A stretch of DNA of 64,000 bases from a virus. Under the pieces are notes generated by a model. That model saw nothing but the letters and a program-made list of their open reading frames with translations, was not told the DNA's origin and made no database searches. The stretch lies in IMG/VR virus record IMGVR_UViG_3300025769_010106, positions 32,001 to 96,000 of that record; one strand, given 5' to 3'. Shown here in pieces: positions 18 through 28,665 of the stretch (positions are counted from its first letter, which is position 1; every line of letters starts with the position of its first letter). The position numbers were made by a program, and so were the translations under genes.

Positions 18-476
18 TTGAATCTAACTACGCTGACATATGAAAATATAGAAGCATTACAGTTTGATACCAACCACGACCCCGTGAGACCCGAGCTTGA
101 CCTTAACTTTAGGTTAGGCCCGGGCCGTCGGGTTTATGTGTTGGAAACAGACGGTAAGTATCAGGCAGCAATTTGCGTTGCCTATACTAATGAAGTACCA
201 ACTACTGTAAAGGAACTTGACCTTATGAGTCAGGCTGCTTGTCAGGAAGATCAACACGGTTCTATTTGTATAGCATATACAGTTTGGAGTCGTGCACCAC
301 GTGCTGGTAGAGAAATTGTGTTTCGTTTGCTAGACGAATGTCGTGCAAATCATAAAGTCAAACGTCTTATTACACTAAGTCCAAAAACGGATATGGCACG
401 TAGGTTTCACTTAAACAATGGAGCAGTTACTTTGCAGAACAATACTGCAACTGATAACTACGAATACAGTTTATGA
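18..476 (+). CDS. GNAT-fold-like hypothetical protein
   Basis: TTG start after AGGAG/TAAGGT; YTVWSRAPRAGREIV resembles the acetyl-CoA binding loop and is followed by MARRFHLNNG (cf. A..FY.K.G). Confidence 0.45.
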   Translation: MNLTTLTYENIEALQFDTNHDPVRPELDLNFRLGPGRRVYVLETDGKYQAAICVAYTNEVPTTVKELDLMSQAACQEDQHGSICIAYTVWSRAPRAGREIVFRLLDECRANHKVKRLITLSPKTDMARRFHLNNGAVTLQNNTATDNYEYSL

Positions 477-910
477 ATATTTTCAAAAATAGAAAAAGAA
501 TTATACTAGATCGCATTGGGCAACAGCCCTATCTAGAAAGGTATTACCTGTTCCTAAAAGATCGTAAATGGTTTCCATTTAACGTCTTCTTACACAAGTT
601 TTTACAAAGTGATCCAGACGAACTACACGATCATCCTTGGCCCTACTTCACGCTAATCTTACGTGGAGGTTATTGGGAGACTACTCCTAAAGGACGCTTT
701 TGGCGTGGCCCAGGGCATATGCGTGTTAACGGTCCTAAGAGTCTACATCGTGTAGAACTAGAACCAGGAGTATGTGCTTGGTCACTATTTTTTCCTGGTC
801 CTAAACTACGTGAGTGGGGTTTCATTGTAAACGGTAAATGGATGCACAATGAAAAGTATTTTGAATGGCGAAAGCAGAAGGTAAGAGATGAACAAACTAT
901 ATCTGTCTAA
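473..910 (+). CDS. RmlC-like cupin protein
   Basis: LHDHPW...GGYWE and HRVEL metal-binding cupin motifs; ATGA overlap with upstream gene. Confidence 0.65.
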   Translation: MNIFKNRKRIILDRIGQQPYLERYYLFLKDRKWFPFNVFLHKFLQSDPDELHDHPWPYFTLILRGGYWETTPKGRFWRGPGHMRVNGPKSLHRVELEPGVCAWSLFFPGPKLREWGFIVNGKWMHNEKYFEWRKQKVRDEQTISV

Positions 911-1400
911 TCGAGATATTGAAAAAGGCGTACATGATATTGTAAACTCAATGTATGCTGACAACTGGCGGCCCGATTACATTGTAGGTATTACACGAGG
1001 TGGATTAATTCCTGCTGTAATGATGAGTCATCTAACTGGTATTAAGATGCACACACTGGACGTTCGTTTGCGTGATGGCGATGAACAACAATCTAACTAT
1101 TGGATGGCAGAGGATGCATTTGGGATCTTTCAAATGGGCGGCACATATGAAGATAAGAAAATTCTTATCTTAGACGATATTAACGATACTGGTGCTACAT
1201 TCCAATGGATCAAAGAAGATTGGCCGGCAGGCTGTCATCCAAATGAACGCCGATGGGATAAAGTTTGGCATAACAATGTTCGGTTTGCTACTATTGTGAA
1301 TAATCTATCCAGTAAGTTTGAGATTGATCACGCTAGTATTGAAATCAACAAAGCAGAGGAAGACACATGGGTTGTTTTCCCATATGAGGAGTGGTGGTGA
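888..1400 (+). CDS. Type I phosphoribosyltransferase (Gpt/xanthine-guanine PRT-like)
   Basis: IVGITRGGLIPA and PRPP-binding ILILDDINDTGAT motifs; C-terminal WVVFPYE. Confidence 0.85.
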   Translation: MNKLYLSNRDIEKGVHDIVNSMYADNWRPDYIVGITRGGLIPAVMMSHLTGIKMHTLDVRLRDGDEQQSNYWMAEDAFGIFQMGGTYEDKKILILDDINDTGATFQWIKEDWPAGCHPNERRWDKVWHNNVRFATIVNNLSSKFEIDHASIEINKAEEDTWVVFPYEEWW

Positions 1401-1996
1401 TGCACGTACCATTATTTGAAACACACAAAGACTGGATTACTGAAGAAGAACATGGCATGTTACAAGCATTGGTGTTGTATGCTCCACGCTGGCGTTTTGG
1501 TCAGGTAAGCGACGATACAATCCAACCAAACTATCCCATGTGGTTCCAAAACTTTTGGAATATTGGGACATTTGAGTTCAAACCAGATCAAGAGATAGTG
1601 ACCAATCTGTTATCACAGCTAAAAGATAGATTTTTAAAGCTATGTCCCAGTAATTATAAACTAGTTAGGTTTATGGCTAGCAGCAATACATTTGGTATTG
1701 ATGGCGATATCCATACAGACTGGCCACATCCTGATGTAAGCATTACCGGTGTGCTCTATACAGACAAGGTATGGGAACAGAACTGGGGCGGCGAAACAGC
1801 GCTCTACAAGGATGGCATTGTAGAAGCTAGCGAATATGAACCCAGAAAGCTCATTACGTTTGATAGCAGTATTGCCCATATAGGCAAAGGACCGCAGCGA
1901 CGTTGTAAGGAGATGAGAACAATTCTAGCGTTTCAAGCAGTTAGCGAAGACGCTCTAAATGCTAGAATGAACAAAAAGGTTGACTCTGAATTATAA
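1400..1996 (+). CDS. 2OG-Fe(II) oxygenase
   Basis: HTD...WGGET...H...R facial triad pattern; start moved to ATG 1400 (GAGGAG at 1386-1391, TGATG coupling). Confidence 0.8.
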   Translation: MHVPLFETHKDWITEEEHGMLQALVLYAPRWRFGQVSDDTIQPNYPMWFQNFWNIGTFEFKPDQEIVTNLLSQLKDRFLKLCPSNYKLVRFMASSNTFGIDGDIHTDWPHPDVSITGVLYTDKVWEQNWGGETALYKDGIVEASEYEPRKLITFDSSIAHIGKGPQRRCKEMRTILAFQAVSEDALNARMNKKVDSEL

Positions 1997-2008
1997 ATAC
2001 CCTACAAT
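1980..2008 (+). promoter_or_regulatory. sigma70-type promoter TTGACT-N17-TACAAT with an embedded T4-like late box TATAAATA (1992-1999)
   Basis: Direct motif match upstream of queD. Confidence 0.7.
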
Positions 2009-2016
2009 ATTAATCA

Positions 2017-2075
2017 TAGAGGACTTAGTGTTCGTTCCCTCTCTAAAAATTCCGCACACTCCATAACCAAGGAGT
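2017..2075 (+). ncRNA. Candidate preQ1-I-like riboswitch / translational switch in the queD leader
   Basis: P1 AGAGG(2018-22)/CCTCT(2038-42), A-tract, pseudoknot AGTGT(2027-31)/ACACT(2056-60), competing hairpin ACTCC(2058-62)/GGAGT(2071-75) that hides the SD; directly upstream of queD-queE. Confidence 0.45.
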
Positions 2076-2081
2076 ATAAAC

Positions 2082-2555
2082 ATGGCAAAGTATATTAGTA
2101 CAAAAACATATAGGCACCTAGGTCCCGTTGCATACAGACAGTGGCGAGCAGATTCACATTGTAATCTTATCCACGGATATGCACTGAGTTTTCATTTCGA
2201 GTTTGAAACTGATGACCTTGATGCTCGAAACTGGGTAGTAGACTTTGGTGGATTACGTCCACTAAAGGACAGCTTAGAAGATTGGTTTGATCACACTCTG
2301 CTAGTAGCACAGGATGATCCAGACCGCGACACGCTACTAGAACTAGGCAAGAAAGGCCTAGCAAAGATTACAGAAGTTGAAAAGACTGGATGCGAGGGTC
2401 TATCAGACTTTTTGTATGAGTATGTAAACACAATATTTTTACCTAGTTGGGAACCTGGCACCAGGGTATGGTGCTGTAAGGTTGAGGTAAGAGAAACTGA
2501 CTCGAATATGGCTATGCGAGTTGGTCACAGAGAAGATGGAGAATTTGATGTTTAA
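2082..2555 (+). CDS. queD: 6-carboxytetrahydropterin synthase (QueD/PTPS family)
   Basis: HCNLIHGY, WVVDFGGL, FDHTLL, GCEGLS and VEVRET motifs. Confidence 0.88.
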   Translation: MAKYISTKTYRHLGPVAYRQWRADSHCNLIHGYALSFHFEFETDDLDARNWVVDFGGLRPLKDSLEDWFDHTLLVAQDDPDRDTLLELGKKGLAKITEVEKTGCEGLSDFLYEYVNTIFLPSWEPGTRVWCCKVEVRETDSNMAMRVGHREDGEFDV

Positions 2556-2772: not shown

Positions 2773-3636
2773 ATGAAAGTAAGATACACTGAAGCGTTTT
2801 ATTCAGTTCAAGGAGAAGGTCGCTGGACAGGTGTGCCCAGTGTTTTCCTTCGCATGTATGGTTGTAACTTTACATGTCCTAAGTTTGGCATTGCAAGAGA
2901 CAGTAACGAAACAGCAGAGCCCCATATCAATAAAATTGTAGATGAGATTGACAAATACAATAGCATTGATGAGCTACCACTTGTAACAGTTGGATGCGAT
3001 AGTTATGCAGCCTGGCATCCCGCATTTAAACGATTCCAGCATGATGTTGATATTGATCAACTAGTAGACGATCTGCTTGCACTTACACCAACAGGTTCTT
3101 GGACATTGGACAATGGACAGGATATCCATTTGGTTATTACAGGCGGTGAACCCTTGCTTGGTTGGCAACGAGCATATATACAATTATTCAAACACGAACG
3201 CATGAAGGACCTAAAGAATGTTACATTCGAAACTAATACTACACAGAATTTGTCTGACGATCTCAGATCGTACCTCACAGATAATCAACATGTACACATT
3301 ACATTCTCTTGTTCCCCTAAACTATCGGTTAGTGGACATACTTGGGTTGATGCTATCAAGCCTAATGTTGCTGTTGAGTACGCTAGTCTTCGTAACAGCC
3401 ACTTGTATCTTAAGTTCGTTGTTTGCGATGATGTTGACGTGGCAGAAGTTGATCGAGCTGTTGCAGAATATAGATCTGCAGGACTTGAAGCGCCGGTTTA
3501 CCTCATGCCAGTCGGCGGTACGACGGACAGTTACTTCAAAAATGGCCGCCAAGTCGCAGAGCTCGCCTTACAAAAAGGCTACAGATATAGTCCACGGCTC
3601 CACGTTGACATCTTTGGCAACGCCTGGGGAACCTAA
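2773..3636 (+). CDS. queE: 7-carboxy-7-deazaguanine synthase (radical SAM QueE) with an expanded cluster loop
   Basis: FYSVQGEG...VFLRMYGCNFTC...GCDS, ITGGEPL, FETN, SPK, YLMP, SPRLH; adjacent to queD. Confidence 0.88.
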   Translation: MKVRYTEAFYSVQGEGRWTGVPSVFLRMYGCNFTCPKFGIARDSNETAEPHINKIVDEIDKYNSIDELPLVTVGCDSYAAWHPAFKRFQHDVDIDQLVDDLLALTPTGSWTLDNGQDIHLVITGGEPLLGWQRAYIQLFKHERMKDLKNVTFETNTTQNLSDDLRSYLTDNQHVHITFSCSPKLSVSGHTWVDAIKPNVAVEYASLRNSHLYLKFVVCDDVDVAEVDRAVAEYRSAGLEAPVYLMPVGGTTDSYFKNGRQVAELALQKGYRYSPRLHVDIFGNAWGT

Positions 3637-3669: not shown

Positions 3670-4227
3670 ATGAAAACCATCTGGGTTAGACATGGTGAGT
3701 CAGAATATAATGCCAAAAACTTAGCAACAGGCTGGCATGATCCTCTACTCACAGAGAAAGGCATAAACCAAGCAGCAAAAACTGCTAAAGAACTTGCTAA
3801 TCGTTATCAGTCAGTTGATAGCATCCATTGCAGTGATTTAAAAAGAGCTGCACAAACAGCAAGTATCATCGTTCAATTAACTCCATGGTTTGTTGATGTT
3901 AAAATTGATCCAAGGCTTAGGGAACGTGATTATGGTACTTGGTCTGGTTGCGATAAAAATCAAAATAAACTAAGTGTGGGTCAAGAACAATATTTAGCCA
4001 TAAGGAGAGGTTGGAAAACAGCACCGCCTGAAGGCGAAAGTCTCGAACAAACCTCAGTAAGGGTAGCAGACTATTTGGACAATATAGAACAAAGTAATGT
4101 TCCAATTATTTTTGTATGTCACGGAAATACTATAAGAGCAGCAAGTGTAATTTTTGGTAAAAATACACCGGAATCTGTTGTAGACTGGGAAATAGAGACT
4201 GGAGGTTTCGTAGAATGGGAATACTAG
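3670..4227 (+). CDS. Histidine phosphatase / dPGM-like protein
   Basis: VRHGESEYN, SDLKRA, LRERDYG, PPEGES and HGNTIR motifs. Confidence 0.88.
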   Translation: MKTIWVRHGESEYNAKNLATGWHDPLLTEKGINQAAKTAKELANRYQSVDSIHCSDLKRAAQTASIIVQLTPWFVDVKIDPRLRERDYGTWSGCDKNQNKLSVGQEQYLAIRRGWKTAPPEGESLEQTSVRVADYLDNIEQSNVPIIFVCHGNTIRAASVIFGKNTPESVVDWEIETGGFVEWEY

Positions 4228-26011: not shown

Positions 26012-27326
26012 GAGCCGGCTCCAGTTCAGGAAAAGTTTTCCAGAAGTCTTCTTTTCTGAAGTTATCTAATTTTGCTACTTCAAATTCAAATCTTTCCCAG
26101 TTTTTTTCATAATTATCCTTAGCATTTAAGAAACTTATTACACCTTCTAAACCAGTTGATGCCCTGTTAAGTGAATCTTGAGGTCTTAACCATTCAATAT
26201 GCTTCCTATATGCAGGTTCAATAACTTCCTTCTTAAACCAAGTTGGGAATATATCTATTCTGTACCAATCAGGACTTTGACATATATTAATATTTAAGTC
26301 TTTAGGTTGTATGAACCCACGCTCTACCCAATCACGATGAAAATCAAGCACATGTAATACATTTTGACTTGTAATAGTTGCACTAATATAGAAGTCTATA
26401 TGTGGAACTTCTTCAATCATTCTCTGTCTGTTTTCTTCTGTTTTTTTCCACACGGCACCCTTGCGTATTAGTTCCCCTTGTTTGCCCATTCCGTCTAGAC
26501 TTGCACCAATACTAACATTATTAAAGTGTTTCCAATACTCTATGACATGTTTGTCTTTATATCTAAGTTCACTAAAGTTAGTGTTATATAGTAAACGTAC
26601 ATTTGTCTTTCCATGCTCGATAAGTTTTTCAAGTAGATAATAATGCTCTTTCATTATAAGCGGTTCGCCGCCTGCAAAATATACTTGTTCTAAGTATGGT
26701 ATATGCTTTTCCATTTGAGCGATCATACCATCTTCATCACCAGTCGTATATTCAACTCTTGCCATATCTCTGCCAAGTACATCTGGTTTGACACCATAGA
26801 GTCCTATATAATCCTCATACCAATTACTACTAAAAATAGGGCCACAACTTCTACATTTAAAATTACAGAGGTTACTAAACCTAACATCCCAGTATCTTAT
26901 TTTAAACTCATCATGGTTACCATCTTGACTTGTTTTATCAAGGTCCTTGATTAAATGACCATAGTTACGATTAGCATCATTACGCATACTGAAGAAACCA
27001 TTTTCTTCTTGTTCATAACATTTACCACATTCAACACAAGTATTTTCTTCCATCATGTTCTTGCGTAATCTTTTATAACCTTCTTGATTCCAAACTTCCT
27101 CCATTGTATTCTTTCTTAGATCACCAACTGGATGCCAGTAATCAGCAAAACAACAGGGATATGCTCTGCCGTCCGGAAACGCATGCATATGTACCCATGG
27201 AAGCATACAGAATCGTTTGCTCTCAATGAGTTTAAATTTTTCGTCTTCAGTTAATTTTTCTAATTCAATGAAGTGTGGTTTACGTTCATCATATTTGAAA
27301 TTTTTGTAAAAGTCCTTGTTAGACAT
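25998..27326 (-). CDS. N-terminal twitch-domain radical SAM protein 3
   Basis: CMLPW...PCC...CGKCY; CNFKCRSC; GGEP. Confidence 0.9.
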   Translation of the reverse strand: MSNKDFYKNFKYDERKPHFIELEKLTEDEKFKLIESKRFCMLPWVHMHAFPDGRAYPCCFADYWHPVGDLRKNTMEEVWNQEGYKRLRKNMMEENTCVECGKCYEQEENGFFSMRNDANRNYGHLIKDLDKTSQDGNHDEFKIRYWDVRFSNLCNFKCRSCGPIFSSNWYEDYIGLYGVKPDVLGRDMARVEYTTGDEDGMIAQMEKHIPYLEQVYFAGGEPLIMKEHYYLLEKLIEHGKTNVRLLYNTNFSELRYKDKHVIEYWKHFNNVSIGASLDGMGKQGELIRKGAVWKKTEENRQRMIEEVPHIDFYISATITSQNVLHVLDFHRDWVERGFIQPKDLNINICQSPDWYRIDIFPTWFKKEVIEPAYRKHIEWLRPQDSLNRASTGLEGVISFLNAKDNYEKNWERFEFEVAKLDNFRKEDFWKTFPELEPARAKP

Positions 27327-28665
27327 TCTGATACCAATCCTTCAATTCTGGAAATACTGAGATTAAGTCCTTTTTTCTACGCACGTCATACTGACTATAA
27401 AACTTTTTAAAGTCATTGTGTAGTTTAGGCATTTCAAATGCTTCACTGTGCGGTGTTTCTACTGTACGCAAATATGTTACCAGTCGTTCCAACTGTCCTT
27501 GTTCAAACTGGTGCATGGGTGTACTACGGTTAAGAAACTTGGGTGCCCAGCGTTTGTATAGGTCTTCCAATTTATCAGCGTGACGATTGCGTATATCCAA
27601 TGGAAGTACTAGTGCCGACTGGAAACTTGGAAAGCGTAATATATTTAAACTGAATACTGCAAAATTATTCCCTAACAGTCTTCTTGTTTGTAATATTTGC
27701 TCGATTAGGTCTGGTAGTGTCTCCAAGCACAGCGCATTAACTGTCATCATGCAATGTGTGCCAACGCCTGCCTCACTCAATCTGCAAATATTTTCCCACC
27801 AATAGTCCCAATCTAATCCGTCACGTATATATTCTGCAGGCGCCCCTACTGCTTCACAACTGGTGTAAACATCCAAGCTAGGCAAGTAATTACGAGCATC
27901 AATTAGTCTGTCAATTAACTCACCCTTGCCTCCTAAGTTACTATTAATAGCAAGTTTGGTTTGGCTTTTGTCTGCGTTTGCTTTGAACCAATCTATTAAA
28001 CGCCACAAGTCTGCGCTCATTGTTGGCTCACCGCCGGTAACTCGTAGTTCACGTAATGTTTTATGTAAGTCTGTATCCCACCATTTAAAAAATGCTTCTA
28101 CGTAAGGATTTCTATCCTCCACCCCATAAAGCTGGCTACTACTATGAACGTGAGTAAAGTGGTTACGGCCATCACTAACAAGGCCCTTATAACTGCCATT
28201 TGTTTTTAGGTCCTTTACCCATGTGGTGCTAAAAGCAGGATTACAGTAACTACAAGCAAAATTGCAGGTACGATCAAATGCAATTTCGAGTGTACGGAGA
28301 TTGACGTCAATATCATGCGGGCTATTTCGTGCATCTTGTAATTCCTCATCAGTATATATCTTGCTCTTATATACACGGTCACTTATAAAATTAGGACCCA
28401 TATCTTCAATTTTCCAACAATACTCACAGCCGGTTGGACGCTCTCCACACTGCATTTGTCGCCGCTGTTCTTTTTTCTCTGGTGTATTGTGTAACAATTT
28501 TGGATTAGTTTCAACAGCAACAGGATCTACTTTATGTGGTAATGGATGATGGCAACTAGTAGTCATGCCAGATCCTAACCAGATAGTAGCATTATACCAT
28601 TTAGCACCACAAAAGGTCGGACTAAGTTTGTCTAGAACTTCCTGTTTATAAATTAAGTCATCCAT
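27319..28665 (-). CDS. N-terminal twitch-domain radical SAM protein 4
   Basis: CGAKW...SCHHP...CEYCW; CNFACSYC; GGEP. Confidence 0.9.
   Translation of the reverse strand: MDDLIYKQEVLDKLSPTFCGAKWYNATIWLGSGMTTSCHHPLPHKVDPVAVETNPKLLHNTPEKKEQRRQMQCGERPTGCEYCWKIEDMGPNFISDRVYKSKIYTDEELQDARNSPHDIDVNLRTLEIAFDRTCNFACSYCNPAFSTTWVKDLKTNGSYKGLVSDGRNHFTHVHSSSQLYGVEDRNPYVEAFFKWWDTDLHKTLRELRVTGGEPTMSADLWRLIDWFKANADKSQTKLAINSNLGGKGELIDRLIDARNYLPSLDVYTSCEAVGAPAEYIRDGLDWDYWWENICRLSEAGVGTHCMMTVNALCLETLPDLIEQILQTRRLLGNNFAVFSLNILRFPSFQSALVLPLDIRNRHADKLEDLYKRWAPKFLNRSTPMHQFEQGQLERLVTYLRTVETPHSEAFEMPKLHNDFKKFYSQYDVRRKKDLISVFPELKDWYQNV

What the first reader, a model, noticed from the sequence alone, without database searches (positions are those of the whole stretch)
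1980..2084. Candidate phage riboswitch: preQ1-I-like pseudoknot competing with an anti-SD hairpin upstream of queD
Seen: the predicted +1 (about 2015) is followed immediately by stem AGAGG/CCUCU with a C just 5' of the 3' strand and an A-tract after it. Loop AGUGU can pair with ACACU (2056-60) as an H-type pseudoknot. The same ACU bases can instead form ACUCC/GGAGU, burying the Shine-Dalgarno. Known: the B. subtilis queC preQ1-I aptamer has the same AGAGG/CCUCU P1, a ligand-pairing C and an A-rich L3, and controls que genes. Inference: this is a variant aptamer with longer loops. Its logic looks like an ON switch (the pseudoknot frees the SD), opposite to feedback repression, so it may sense a different ligand.
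Basis: partly seen in the sequence, partly recalled or inferred. Interest (0 to 1): 0.8.

Follow-up and report, generated by a model that had tools for sequence, protein, structure and literature searches.

The report
Phage queD-leader pseudoknot riboswitch candidate
The short leader in front of this uncultured jumbo phage's queD gene folds into a small RNA pseudoknot that hundreds of uncultured phages keep through compensating base changes; no catalogued RNA family matches it, and it is wired so that forming the knot frees the ribosome-binding site, so it is probably a new, phage-only riboswitch that turns translation on.

Summary
Window 2018-2060 encodes an H-type pseudoknot, and its 3' strand can instead pair with the queD Shine-Dalgarno.

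The single sequence is not significant on its own (MFE z = +0.27). The comparative evidence is very strong:
- A covariance model finds the motif directly upstream of QueD-like genes in 226 of 240 loci retrieved by protein similarity alone.
- About 105 of 120 hits to a nucleotide pattern in IMG/VR carry it.
- 92-94% of cells are paired, against 73-78% in shuffles and 30-58% in slid controls.
- Three P1 pairs and six P2 pairs show compensatory changes.

I add a P2 extension. C-G and R-Y pairs (A-U 79, G-C 21) flank an invariant U·C.

Across platform classes, the variable P2 3' strand is complementary to its own SD or start codon. This supports ON logic.

No Rfam family matches it, including preQ1-I, -II and -III. 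I found no copy among the sampled pattern hits in bacterial genomes, none in cultured phages by blastn, and no paper describing it.

The layout resembles preQ1-I, but membership is not supported. The ligand is unknown.

Motif-bearing jumbo phages encode FolE, one QueD, QueE and a PRTase, but no detectable DpdA or QueC.

Earlier notes of this scan report the same motif on other DNA.

The parts
1980..2008 (+). Sigma-70-like promoter: TTGACT, 17 nt, TACAAT. The predicted +1 is about 2015, a few bases before P1.
   Evidence: scores it 10 of 12, joint-best in the first 8 kb. The same TTGAC...TACAAT/TATTAT arrangement recurs in the closest relatives' leaders.
2018..2022 (+). P1 5' strand, AGAGG.
   Evidence: It pairs with 2038-2042. 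Covariation is seen at three P1 positions: A-U/U-A, G-C/C-G and C-G/A-U/U-A. The top two G-C pairs are invariant.
2023..2026 (+). L1, ACUU. The C and U (2024-2025) are invariant across the family. The rest varies in length.
2027..2034 (+). P2 5' strand, AGUGU-U-CG. It has a variable part (2027-2031), an invariant U2032, an invariant C2033 and R2034.
   Evidence: The four core pairs each show 4-6 Watson-Crick or wobble types. R-Y is A-U in 79 and G-C in 21 of 101 sequences. C-G changes to A-U in one clade.
2035..2037 (+). L2, UUC. C2037 is invariant and sits where preQ1-I has its specificity cytosine.
   Evidence: C in 151 of 151 ungapped sequences retrieved by protein similarity alone. The pattern with this C changed to T gave 0 true motifs among 116 hits.
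2038..2042 (+). P1 3' strand, CCUCU.
2043..2052 (+). L3, CUAAAAAUUC. The alternating A residues (2045, 2047, 2049) and U2051-C2052 are invariant.
   Evidence: The position after the first A tracks the middle P1 pair. A variant with a 4-bp P1 has a 7-nt L3.
2053..2060 (+). P2 3' strand, CGC-ACACU.
2058..2075 (+). Alternative anti-SD hairpin: ACUCC 2058-2062 pairs with GGAGU 2071-2075. It shares ACU (2058-2060) with P2.
   Evidence: It is part of the MFE structure and is worth -6.3 kcal/mol. The family-wide test of the P2 3' strand against its own RBS is.
2069..2084 (+). Shine-Dalgarno AAGGAG (2069-2074) and the queD start codon (2082-2084).
2082..2555 (+). QueD-like (PTPS family) gene, 157 aa. 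It is the only PTPS-family gene found in this 108-kb record.
   Evidence: Pfam PTPS 2.6e-14. phrog_2389 8.7e-41. It scores below the NCBIfam QueD cut-off, 32.7 against 89 bits. One copy per record.
2773..3636 (+). QueE-like radical-SAM gene. It probably lies in the same transcription unit.
   Evidence: phrog_2076 2.3e-52. NCBIfam QueE models match the N-terminus.
888..1400 (+). Xanthine/guanine-type phosphoribosyltransferase-like gene, given as pathway context.
   Evidence: It clusters with folE and queE in other motif-bearing genomes.

Best explanation
The queD leader (window about 2015-2081) is a member of a large, uncatalogued family of phage cis-regulatory RNAs. It is most likely a riboswitch that controls translation initiation of queD.

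Shown here:
- The RNA forms an H-type pseudoknot: a 5-bp P1, a P2 of 5 variable pairs plus an invariant U·C plus C-G and R-Y, a 2-3 nt L2 ending in an invariant C, and a 10-nt L3 with alternating invariant A residues ending in UC.
- The 3' strand of P2 is also complementary to the gene's own ribosome-binding site. In this window that is ACUCC/GGAGU. In other members it is the SD or the start codon.
- The two pairings therefore exclude each other.

Inferred:
- A small ligand binds at the pyrimidine-lined P1/P2 junction (C2024, U2025, C2037, U2051, C2052), between the G2022-C2038 and G2034-C2053 pairs.
- Binding stabilises the knot, withdraws the anti-RBS strand and switches translation ON.
- By analogy with preQ1-I and purine aptamers, the invariant C before P1 would read the Watson-Crick face of a guanine-like heterocycle. 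Candidates are a 7-deazaguanine (CDG, preQ0, preQ1), guanine or GTP, or the pterin substrate of QueD (dihydroneopterin triphosphate). I cannot rank these.
- An ON switch fits feed-forward induction of the committed step better than end-product feedback.
For: Structure and conservation:
- about half of the 80 closest queD loci carry the motif, with visibly compensatory P1 and P2 variants.
- 101 distinct copies show 93.9% of cells paired, against 75.8% in shuffles and 40-55% in slid controls. There are 254 double-sided changes against 83 expected.
- in three other QueD subfamilies (about 43-62% identical to this QueD) retrieved by protein alone, the model hits just upstream of queD in 77, 73-75 and 74 of 80 loci. 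The same nucleotides are invariant in 157 unique sequences.
- the same statistics hold on those sets, which owe nothing to the nucleotide pattern.
- compensatory C-G to A-U in the P2 extension, and L3 length tracks P1 length.
- changing the L2 C to T in the pattern gives 0 true motifs among 116 hits.

Switch wiring:
- the P2 3' strand pairs with its own RBS at -8.0 kcal/mol. With strands swapped in from other members the value is -5.6, and with shuffled strands -3.9. The native strand beats the swap in 106 of 122 cases, p about 3e-17.
- in this window P2 (-6.7) and the anti-SD hairpin (-6.3) are nearly balanced. SD accessibility rises from 0.30 to 0.74 when the P2 strands are withheld.

Gene association:
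- 113 of 118 distinct downstream ORFs are QueD-like.
- PTPS-family genes were among the ORFs found just downstream in three loci, which probably accounts for some of the five exceptions.
- there is one strong copy and one QueD gene per genome (two records add only a weak second hit near the E cut-off).
Against: - No ligand binding or regulation has been measured.
- The single-sequence fold is no better than shuffles.
- The RNA is tied to one gene family only, which also fits a protein-mediated or autoregulatory leader.
- ON regulation of a biosynthetic gene is unusual for que-pathway riboswitches, and no candidate ligand is singled out by the data.
- P2 has up to 7 pairs and could form without a ligand.
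- In one platform class only 2 nt are shared between P2 and the anti-SD helix, so exclusion there is partial.
- Part of the conservation in alignment A2 was imposed by the search pattern. The sets retrieved by protein alone confirm it.
Confidence: 0.62

Rival explanations
1. It is a true but very divergent preQ1-I riboswitch. It binds preQ1 or preQ0 in the same way as types I-III and has been rewired so that binding activates queD translation.
For: It shares the H-type layout: a 5-bp P1 with invariant G-C pairs at the top, an invariant C immediately 5' of the P1 3' strand, an A-rich L3 and a short L2 as in type III (features of types I-III from PMC10622847). The controlled gene belongs to the que pathway. 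One of 25 copies gets a weak RF00522 hit of 10 bits.
Against: RF00522 finds nothing on the leader at E <= 10 and nothing above 17 bits in 25 records, against a gathering score of 39. L1, P2 and the 3' end of L3 differ: UC replaces the ligand-reading A. Activation of a biosynthetic gene by an end product makes little regulatory sense. The complete motif-bearing genomes show no QueC, so no phage route to preQ0 or preQ1 is visible.
Confidence: 0.15
2. It is a structured leader that switches without a small molecule. The knot-versus-anti-RBS choice could be set by a phage or host protein (possibly QueD itself), by temperature or Mg2+, by the folding order during transcription, or by which promoter makes the transcript.
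For: The association with QueD-like genes alone is near-exclusive, which is typical of autoregulatory leaders. P2 is long enough to form on its own. In one platform class the hairpin loop reads like an extended -10 element, which hints at transcripts with different 5' ends.
Against: About 19 unpaired or junction nucleotides are invariant across QueD subfamilies only 32-62% identical to one another. That fits a fixed small-molecule pocket better than a co-evolving protein partner. The two states are nearly isoenergetic, as expected for a ligand-tipped switch.
Confidence: 0.2
3. It is an ordinary leader with chance complementarity, or another kind of element such as a terminator or a coding region.
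For: The MFE z-score is +0.27. There is no Rfam hit.
Against: Covariation is far beyond the shuffled and slid controls in several independent sets. There is no U-tract terminator. The element is intergenic, between the stop codon at 1996 and the ATG at 2082.
Confidence: 0.01

Closest known systems
preQ1-I riboswitch (Rfam RF00522; types I-III, e.g. B. subtilis queC, T. tengcongensis, E. coli yhhQ)
   Same: It is a compact H-type pseudoknot in a que-pathway leader. P1 is about 5 bp with conserved G-C pairs next to the junction. An invariant C lies directly 5' of the P1 3' strand. L3 is A-rich and positioned to lie in the P1 minor groove. L2 is short, as in type III. Control is at the level of translation.
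   Different: The covariance model does not detect it. The aptamer is 43-50 nt, where the crystallised preQ1-I constructs cited in PMC10622847 are 30-34 nt. L1 carries an invariant CU and a variable insert. P2 has 7 Watson-Crick pairs with an invariant U·C. L3 ends in invariant UC where preQ1-I has the ligand-reading A. The P2 3' strand is an anti-RBS rather than the RBS itself, so the logic is ON rather than OFF. It was found only in phage contigs and only before QueD-like genes.
Translational ON riboswitches with an anti-RBS / anti-anti-RBS platform (e.g. the Vibrio vulnificus add adenine riboswitch; from my own knowledge)
   Same: Aptamer folding captures the strand that would otherwise sequester the SD or start codon, so ligand binding would activate translation.
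   Different: The aptamer fold is different: a three-way junction there, a pseudoknot here. The ligand here is unknown.
Other H-type pseudoknot riboswitches (SAM-II/V, preQ1-II, preQ1-III, fluoride, guanidine-III, NAD+-II)
   Same: A small pseudoknot with loop-helix triplex features.
   Different: None of their Rfam models gives a hit at E <= 10 on the leader. The conserved nucleotides and gene context differ.

Membership tests
preQ1-I riboswitch (RF00522) | Scores at or above the Rfam gathering threshold (39 bits). | tested here: not met
   There is no hit in the window at gathering. There is no RF00522 hit at E <= 10 on 1950-2130. In 25 motif-bearing records the best score is 17 bits and lies elsewhere. 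One motif copy is overlapped by a 10-bit hit.
preQ1-I riboswitch (RF00522) | H-type pseudoknot with a short P1 whose junction-proximal G-C pairs are conserved. | tested here: met
   P1 and P2 are supported by covariation. G-C pairs 7-25 and 8-24 of the model are invariant.
preQ1-I riboswitch (RF00522) | A conserved specificity cytosine at the end of L2, directly 5' of the P1 3' strand. | tested here: met
   C2037 is C in 151 of 151 ungapped sequences. No C-to-U variants appeared among 116 pattern hits. Its role in ligand pairing is not testable here.
preQ1-I riboswitch (RF00522) | An A-rich L3 whose last A reads the ligand edge, an L1 of 1-3 nt and a minimal aptamer of about 34 nt. | tested here: not met
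   L3 is A-rich but ends in invariant UC. L1 is 3-11 nt. P2 has 7 pairs plus U·C. The aptamer is 43-50 nt.
preQ1-I riboswitch (RF00522) | The P2 3' strand contains or abuts the SD (or a terminator follows), giving an OFF switch. | tested here: not met
   The P2 3' strand is complementary to the RBS rather than part of it. The predicted logic is ON.
preQ1-I riboswitch (RF00522) | Binds preQ1 or preQ0. | not testable with these tools
   Needs in-line probing, ITC or a solved structure.
preQ1-II (RF01054) and preQ1-III (RF02680) | A match to the family covariance model. | tested here: not met
   Neither appears among hits at E <= 10 on the leader or at gathering in the window.
Riboswitch (generic) | A conserved structured aptamer with covariation and invariant unpaired nucleotides, in a 5' leader. 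| tested here: met
Riboswitch (generic) | An expression platform with mutually exclusive pairings that involve an aptamer strand. | tested here: met
   Three platform classes were seen: two anti-SD and one anti-start-codon.
Riboswitch (generic) | Direct, protein-free binding of a metabolite that changes gene expression. | not testable with these tools
   An experiment is required.

The most novel reading that the evidence does not exclude
This is the first riboswitch class found only in phages. It would be an ON switch whose preQ1-I-like pocket has been retuned to a pathway precursor or intermediate, such as dihydroneopterin triphosphate or another pterin, CDG, or a guanine nucleotide. It would gate the single QueD gene, the committed step, of a jumbo-phage 7-deazapurine pathway that has FolE, QueD, QueE and a phosphoribosyltransferase but no recognisable DpdA or QueC. 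Such a pathway may therefore act on the nucleotide pool rather than on finished DNA.
Probability: 0.35. Interest if true: 0.9.

Novelty: new variant of a known kind. Interest (0 to 1): 0.8.

Why it matters
If it binds a ligand, this would be a new riboswitch class with at least many hundreds of members, carried by phages rather than cells, and with activating logic opposite to all known preQ1 switches.

It would show that phages use metabolite sensing to time or dose the committed step of DNA-hypermodification chemistry. It would give a compact (about 45 nt) natural ON aptamer for synthetic biology. Its ligand would point to the rate-limiting intermediate in a 7-deazapurine pathway that lacks the usual QueC and DpdA steps.

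The RNA is small and its two states are clearly defined. The question is therefore directly testable by in-line probing, reporter assays and crystallography.

Tried and rejected
- Rfam at gathering on the whole window and at E <= 10 on 181 nt returned only chance snoRNA and sRNA hits.
- Single-sequence folding was not significant.
- A nucleotide search of cultured phages with 2.9 kb around queD gave one short, unrelated match.
- blastn of the window's leader and of a second class of leader against 50,697 cultured-phage records returned only chance matches of 20-50 nt.
- The closest cultured QueD carriers I inspected, Acidovorax phage ACP17 (72% identity) and Xanthomonas phage X1 (64%), have queD overlapping or abutting the previous gene, with no room for the motif.
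None has P1 plus P2. This is a sample, not an exhaustive search.
- I considered that one genome might hold several QueD paralogs, each with its own switch. I rejected this: there is one strong motif copy and one PTPS gene per record, including both complete genomes.
- A second copy in the window was sought and not found. The next best hit scores 10.7 bits.
- Four literature searches found no description of the motif.
- Neighbour-gene tallies are heterogeneous and do not single out a ligand. They include 16 QueE-like genes, 15 hits to a 'glycosyltransferase' phrog, 8 DAHP-synthase family, 3 PRTase and 2 YhhQ-type transporters.

Full report
**What is in the window**

The gap between the stop codon of a 2OG-Fe(II)-oxygenase-like ORF (ending at 1996) and the ATG of a QueD-like gene (2082-2555) holds several elements.
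- A sigma-70-type promoter match: TTGACT, 17 nt, TACAAT at 1980-2008. It is the joint-best match in the first 8 kb.
- P1: AGAGG 2018-2022 pairs with CCUCU 2038-2042.
- Pseudoknot: loop bases AGUGU 2027-2031 are complementary to ACACU 2056-2060.
- Alternative helix: ACUCC 2058-2062 is complementary to GGAGU 2071-2075, which lies inside the SD.

Folding the single sequence gives exactly P1 plus the anti-SD hairpin, at -10.8 kcal/mol. That is no better than shuffled sequence, z = +0.27. On its own the observation would be weak.

**Comparative evidence**

The 80 closest QueD loci in IMG/VR (80-100% amino-acid identity) were retrieved by protein only. About half carry the same leader element, with obvious compensatory variants.
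- P1 variants: AGAGG/CCUCU, AGCGG/CCGCU, CCGG/CCGG.
- P2 variants: GUGU/ACAC, GACAC/GUGUC, GGCAU/AUGCC, GGCG/CGCC, GACAU/AUGUC.

About 105 of its 120 hits have both helices.

I built a covariance model that encodes only P1 (R1). It aligned 101 distinct copies. On that alignment P2 was not part of the model. The full pseudoknot has 93.9% of cells paired. The shuffled controls give 75.8% and the slid controls 40-55%. There are 254 double-sided changes against 83 expected. No shuffle out of 500 reached the observed covariation score.

To remove the bias of the nucleotide pattern, I retrieved three further QueD subfamilies by protein alone. They are about 43-62% identical to the window's QueD.
- R1 hits immediately upstream of queD in 77, 73-75 and 74 of 80 loci.
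- The statistics repeat: 92-93% paired against 75-78% in shuffles.

There is one copy in the window. There is one strong copy per viral record in 25 records; two records add only a weak second hit near the E cut-off.

**Refined anatomy**

- After the 4-5 variable pairs comes an invariant U opposite an invariant C (U2032·C2055).
- Next is an invariant C-G (2033-2054). One clade replaces it with A-U, which is compensatory.
- Next is an R-Y pair (2034-2053) that is A-U in 79 and G-C in 21 of 101 sequences, with one exception.

L2 is therefore only 2-3 nt and ends in an invariant C (2037). L3 is 10 nt, N-U-A-N-A-N-A-Y-U-C, with invariant alternating A residues and an invariant 3' UC.

P1 covaries at its three outer pairs. 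The two G-C pairs next to the junction never change.

The L3 position after the first A tracks the middle P1 pair. It is A with A-U or U-A, and C or U with C-G. This suggests a minor-groove triple, although shared ancestry could produce the same pattern. A short variant with a 4-bp P1 has a 7-nt L3.

In the pattern-independent sets (157 unique sequences) the invariant nucleotides are:
- the top of P1;
- CU in L1;
- U, C and R at the base of P2;
- the L2 C;
- three A residues and UC in L3;
- Y, G and C.

A control pattern with the L2 C changed to T returned 116 hits, none with the helices.

**Expression platform**

The 3' strand of P2 varies in sequence, yet it is always complementary to the gene's own ribosome-binding site. 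Three classes appear.
- ACUCC...GGAGU, as in this window.
- (G/U)GCCUAUG...CAUAGGAG. This is an anti-SD helix that shares CC with P2.
- GUCAUC or GCCAUC...GAUGAC or GAUGGC. This is an anti-start-codon helix, and it covaries with the second codon.

I measured this over 122 unique leaders. The P2 3' strand plus four bases pairs with its own RBS at a mean of -8.0 kcal/mol. Strands swapped in from members with a different P2 give -5.6, and shuffled strands give -3.9. The native strand is better than the swap in 106 of 122 cases (Wilcoxon p about 3e-17).

In this window the two states are nearly balanced: P2 duplex -6.7, anti-SD hairpin -6.3. Withholding the P2 strands raises the mean unpaired probability of the SD from 0.30 to 0.74.

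So knot formation frees the RBS. If a ligand stabilises the knot, it turns translation ON. That step is inference.

**Gene association and pathway context**

Of 118 distinct ORFs directly downstream of the motif, 113 are QueD-like (PTPS family). They span 100% down to 32% identity to the window's protein. PTPS-family genes were among the ORFs found just downstream in three loci, which probably accounts for some of the five exceptions.

The window lies in a 108-kb IMG/VR record estimated to be 31% complete, so this is a jumbo phage.
- FolE lies 7 kb upstream.
- A QueE-like radical-SAM gene follows queD.
- A xanthine/guanine-type PRTase lies two genes upstream.

In 24 other motif-bearing records:
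- FolE is present in 17 and QueE-like in 16-17;
- TGT/DpdA (PF01702) is present in none;
- QueC gives only weak PP-loop-level matches.

Two of these records are complete genomes of 353 and 382 kb. Each has one QueD (the one behind the RNA), FolE, QueE and a PRTase clustered with folE and queE. Neither has TGT or DUF6610/DpdA4. In both, queD with its RNA lies about 50 kb from folE and queE. The RNA therefore controls queD specifically, not an operon.

One caveat applies. DpdA3 is a relative of TGT that was found only by HHpred (PMC10516641), so I cannot exclude it.

**Comparison with what is known**

No Rfam 15 family matches the window at gathering or the leader at E <= 10. RF00522 searched over 25 motif-bearing records gives nothing above 17 bits, against a gathering score of 39. 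Only one weak hit, at 10 bits, overlaps a motif copy.

The layout is nevertheless closest to preQ1-I as described in PMC10622847: an H-type knot, a short P1 with conserved G-C pairs, a specificity C at the end of L2 and an A-rich tail.

It differs in five ways: the longer L1 and P2, the U·C opposition, the UC at the end of L3 where preQ1-I has the ligand-reading A, the wiring (anti-RBS rather than RBS), and its size.

I therefore say it works like a preQ1-I-type pseudoknot aptamer. I do not file it as a member.

**Distribution and novelty**

- None of the 120 sampled pattern hits in 185,579 bacterial and archaeal species genomes has the helices.
- No cultured phage matched by blastn.
- The closest cultured QueD carriers I inspected have no leader.
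- Four full-text searches found no paper describing it.
- Earlier notes of this same scan describe the same motif on other genomes and reach similar readings. They are not independent evidence, and I formed my reading before I consulted them.

**Verdict**

- The structured RNA is real. I am near certain of this.
- The switch between the knot and the anti-RBS helix is well supported by covariation.
- That a small molecule drives it is likely but untested, about 0.6.
- The ligand is unknown.

The invariant C suggests a ligand with a guanine-like Watson-Crick face. The ON logic suggests a precursor such as the pterin substrate, a guanine nucleotide or a pathway intermediate, rather than end-product feedback.

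The main rivals are a protein-driven or ligand-free switch (about 0.2) and a true but divergent preQ1-I (about 0.15).

Noticed in passing
window 888-1400, 2082-2555, 2773-3636; G000 contig 26815-27342; G011 148-154 kb; G012 288-291 kb; G016 101-108 kb: The motif-bearing jumbo phages share a FolE / PRTase (phrog_8995) / QueE-like cluster and a single QueD. They have no TGT/DpdA (PF01702), no DUF6610/DpdA4 and no real QueC, even in two complete genomes. This hints at a 7-deazapurine route that stops at CDG and may pass through a nucleotide made by the PRTase. DpdA3-type enzymes are not excluded.
   Followed up: partly
e.g. L119:377-420, L086, L101, L156 (the platform class with CCUAUG...CAUAGG): The loop of the anti-SD hairpin reads TGCTAnAAT, which is a good extended -10 element. 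Transcripts started there would lack the anti-SD arm and escape control. It may instead be only a conserved loop.
   Followed up: no
L391:334-377, L396:342-384, L385, L393, L403: A short variant of the motif has a 4-bp P1 and a 7-nt L3 in place of 5 bp and 10 nt. This fits L3 lying along the P1 groove. It scores only 15-26 bits with model R1.
   Followed up: partly
L434:341-387, L427, L454: In one clade the invariant C-G pair of the P2 extension is replaced by A-U (UAUAAUC...UUCUUC). This is a compensatory change at an otherwise fixed pair.
   Followed up: yes
L090:5-54 (1 kb upstream of the main copy at 999-1049): A weak second copy scores 21 bits and has altered P1 and P2-extension bases. 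It may be a decayed duplicate. Another note of this scan reports two copies in one phage.
   Followed up: no
G012 contig 241-271 kb; similar stretches in G016, G018, G020: Arrays of about 300-520-aa ORFs give weak radical-SAM-core matches to the QueE-like phrog. This would be an unusually large set of radical-SAM paralogs in jumbo phages.
   Followed up: no
window 2082-2555: The QueD-like protein and its relatives score well below the NCBIfam QueD cut-off (32.7 against 89 bits). They carry C-x3-H-G-Y where, from memory, canonical QueD has C-x3-H-G-H. Their exact reaction is not established.
   Followed up: no
window 473-910, 1391-1996, 3670-4227: Around queD lie a cupin / 'cysteine dioxygenase'-type ORF, a 2OG-Fe(II) oxygenase (FlmC-like) and a histidine-phosphatase (phosphoglycerate-mutase-like) ORF. 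They may be tailoring enzymes of the same pathway.
   Followed up: no
downstream of queD in about 15 loci, e.g. L086:1839-2669, L119:890-1720: A protein of about 277 aa follows queD. It matches the PHROG 'glycosyltransferase' families phrog_1962 and phrog_14945 but no Pfam family.
   Followed up: no
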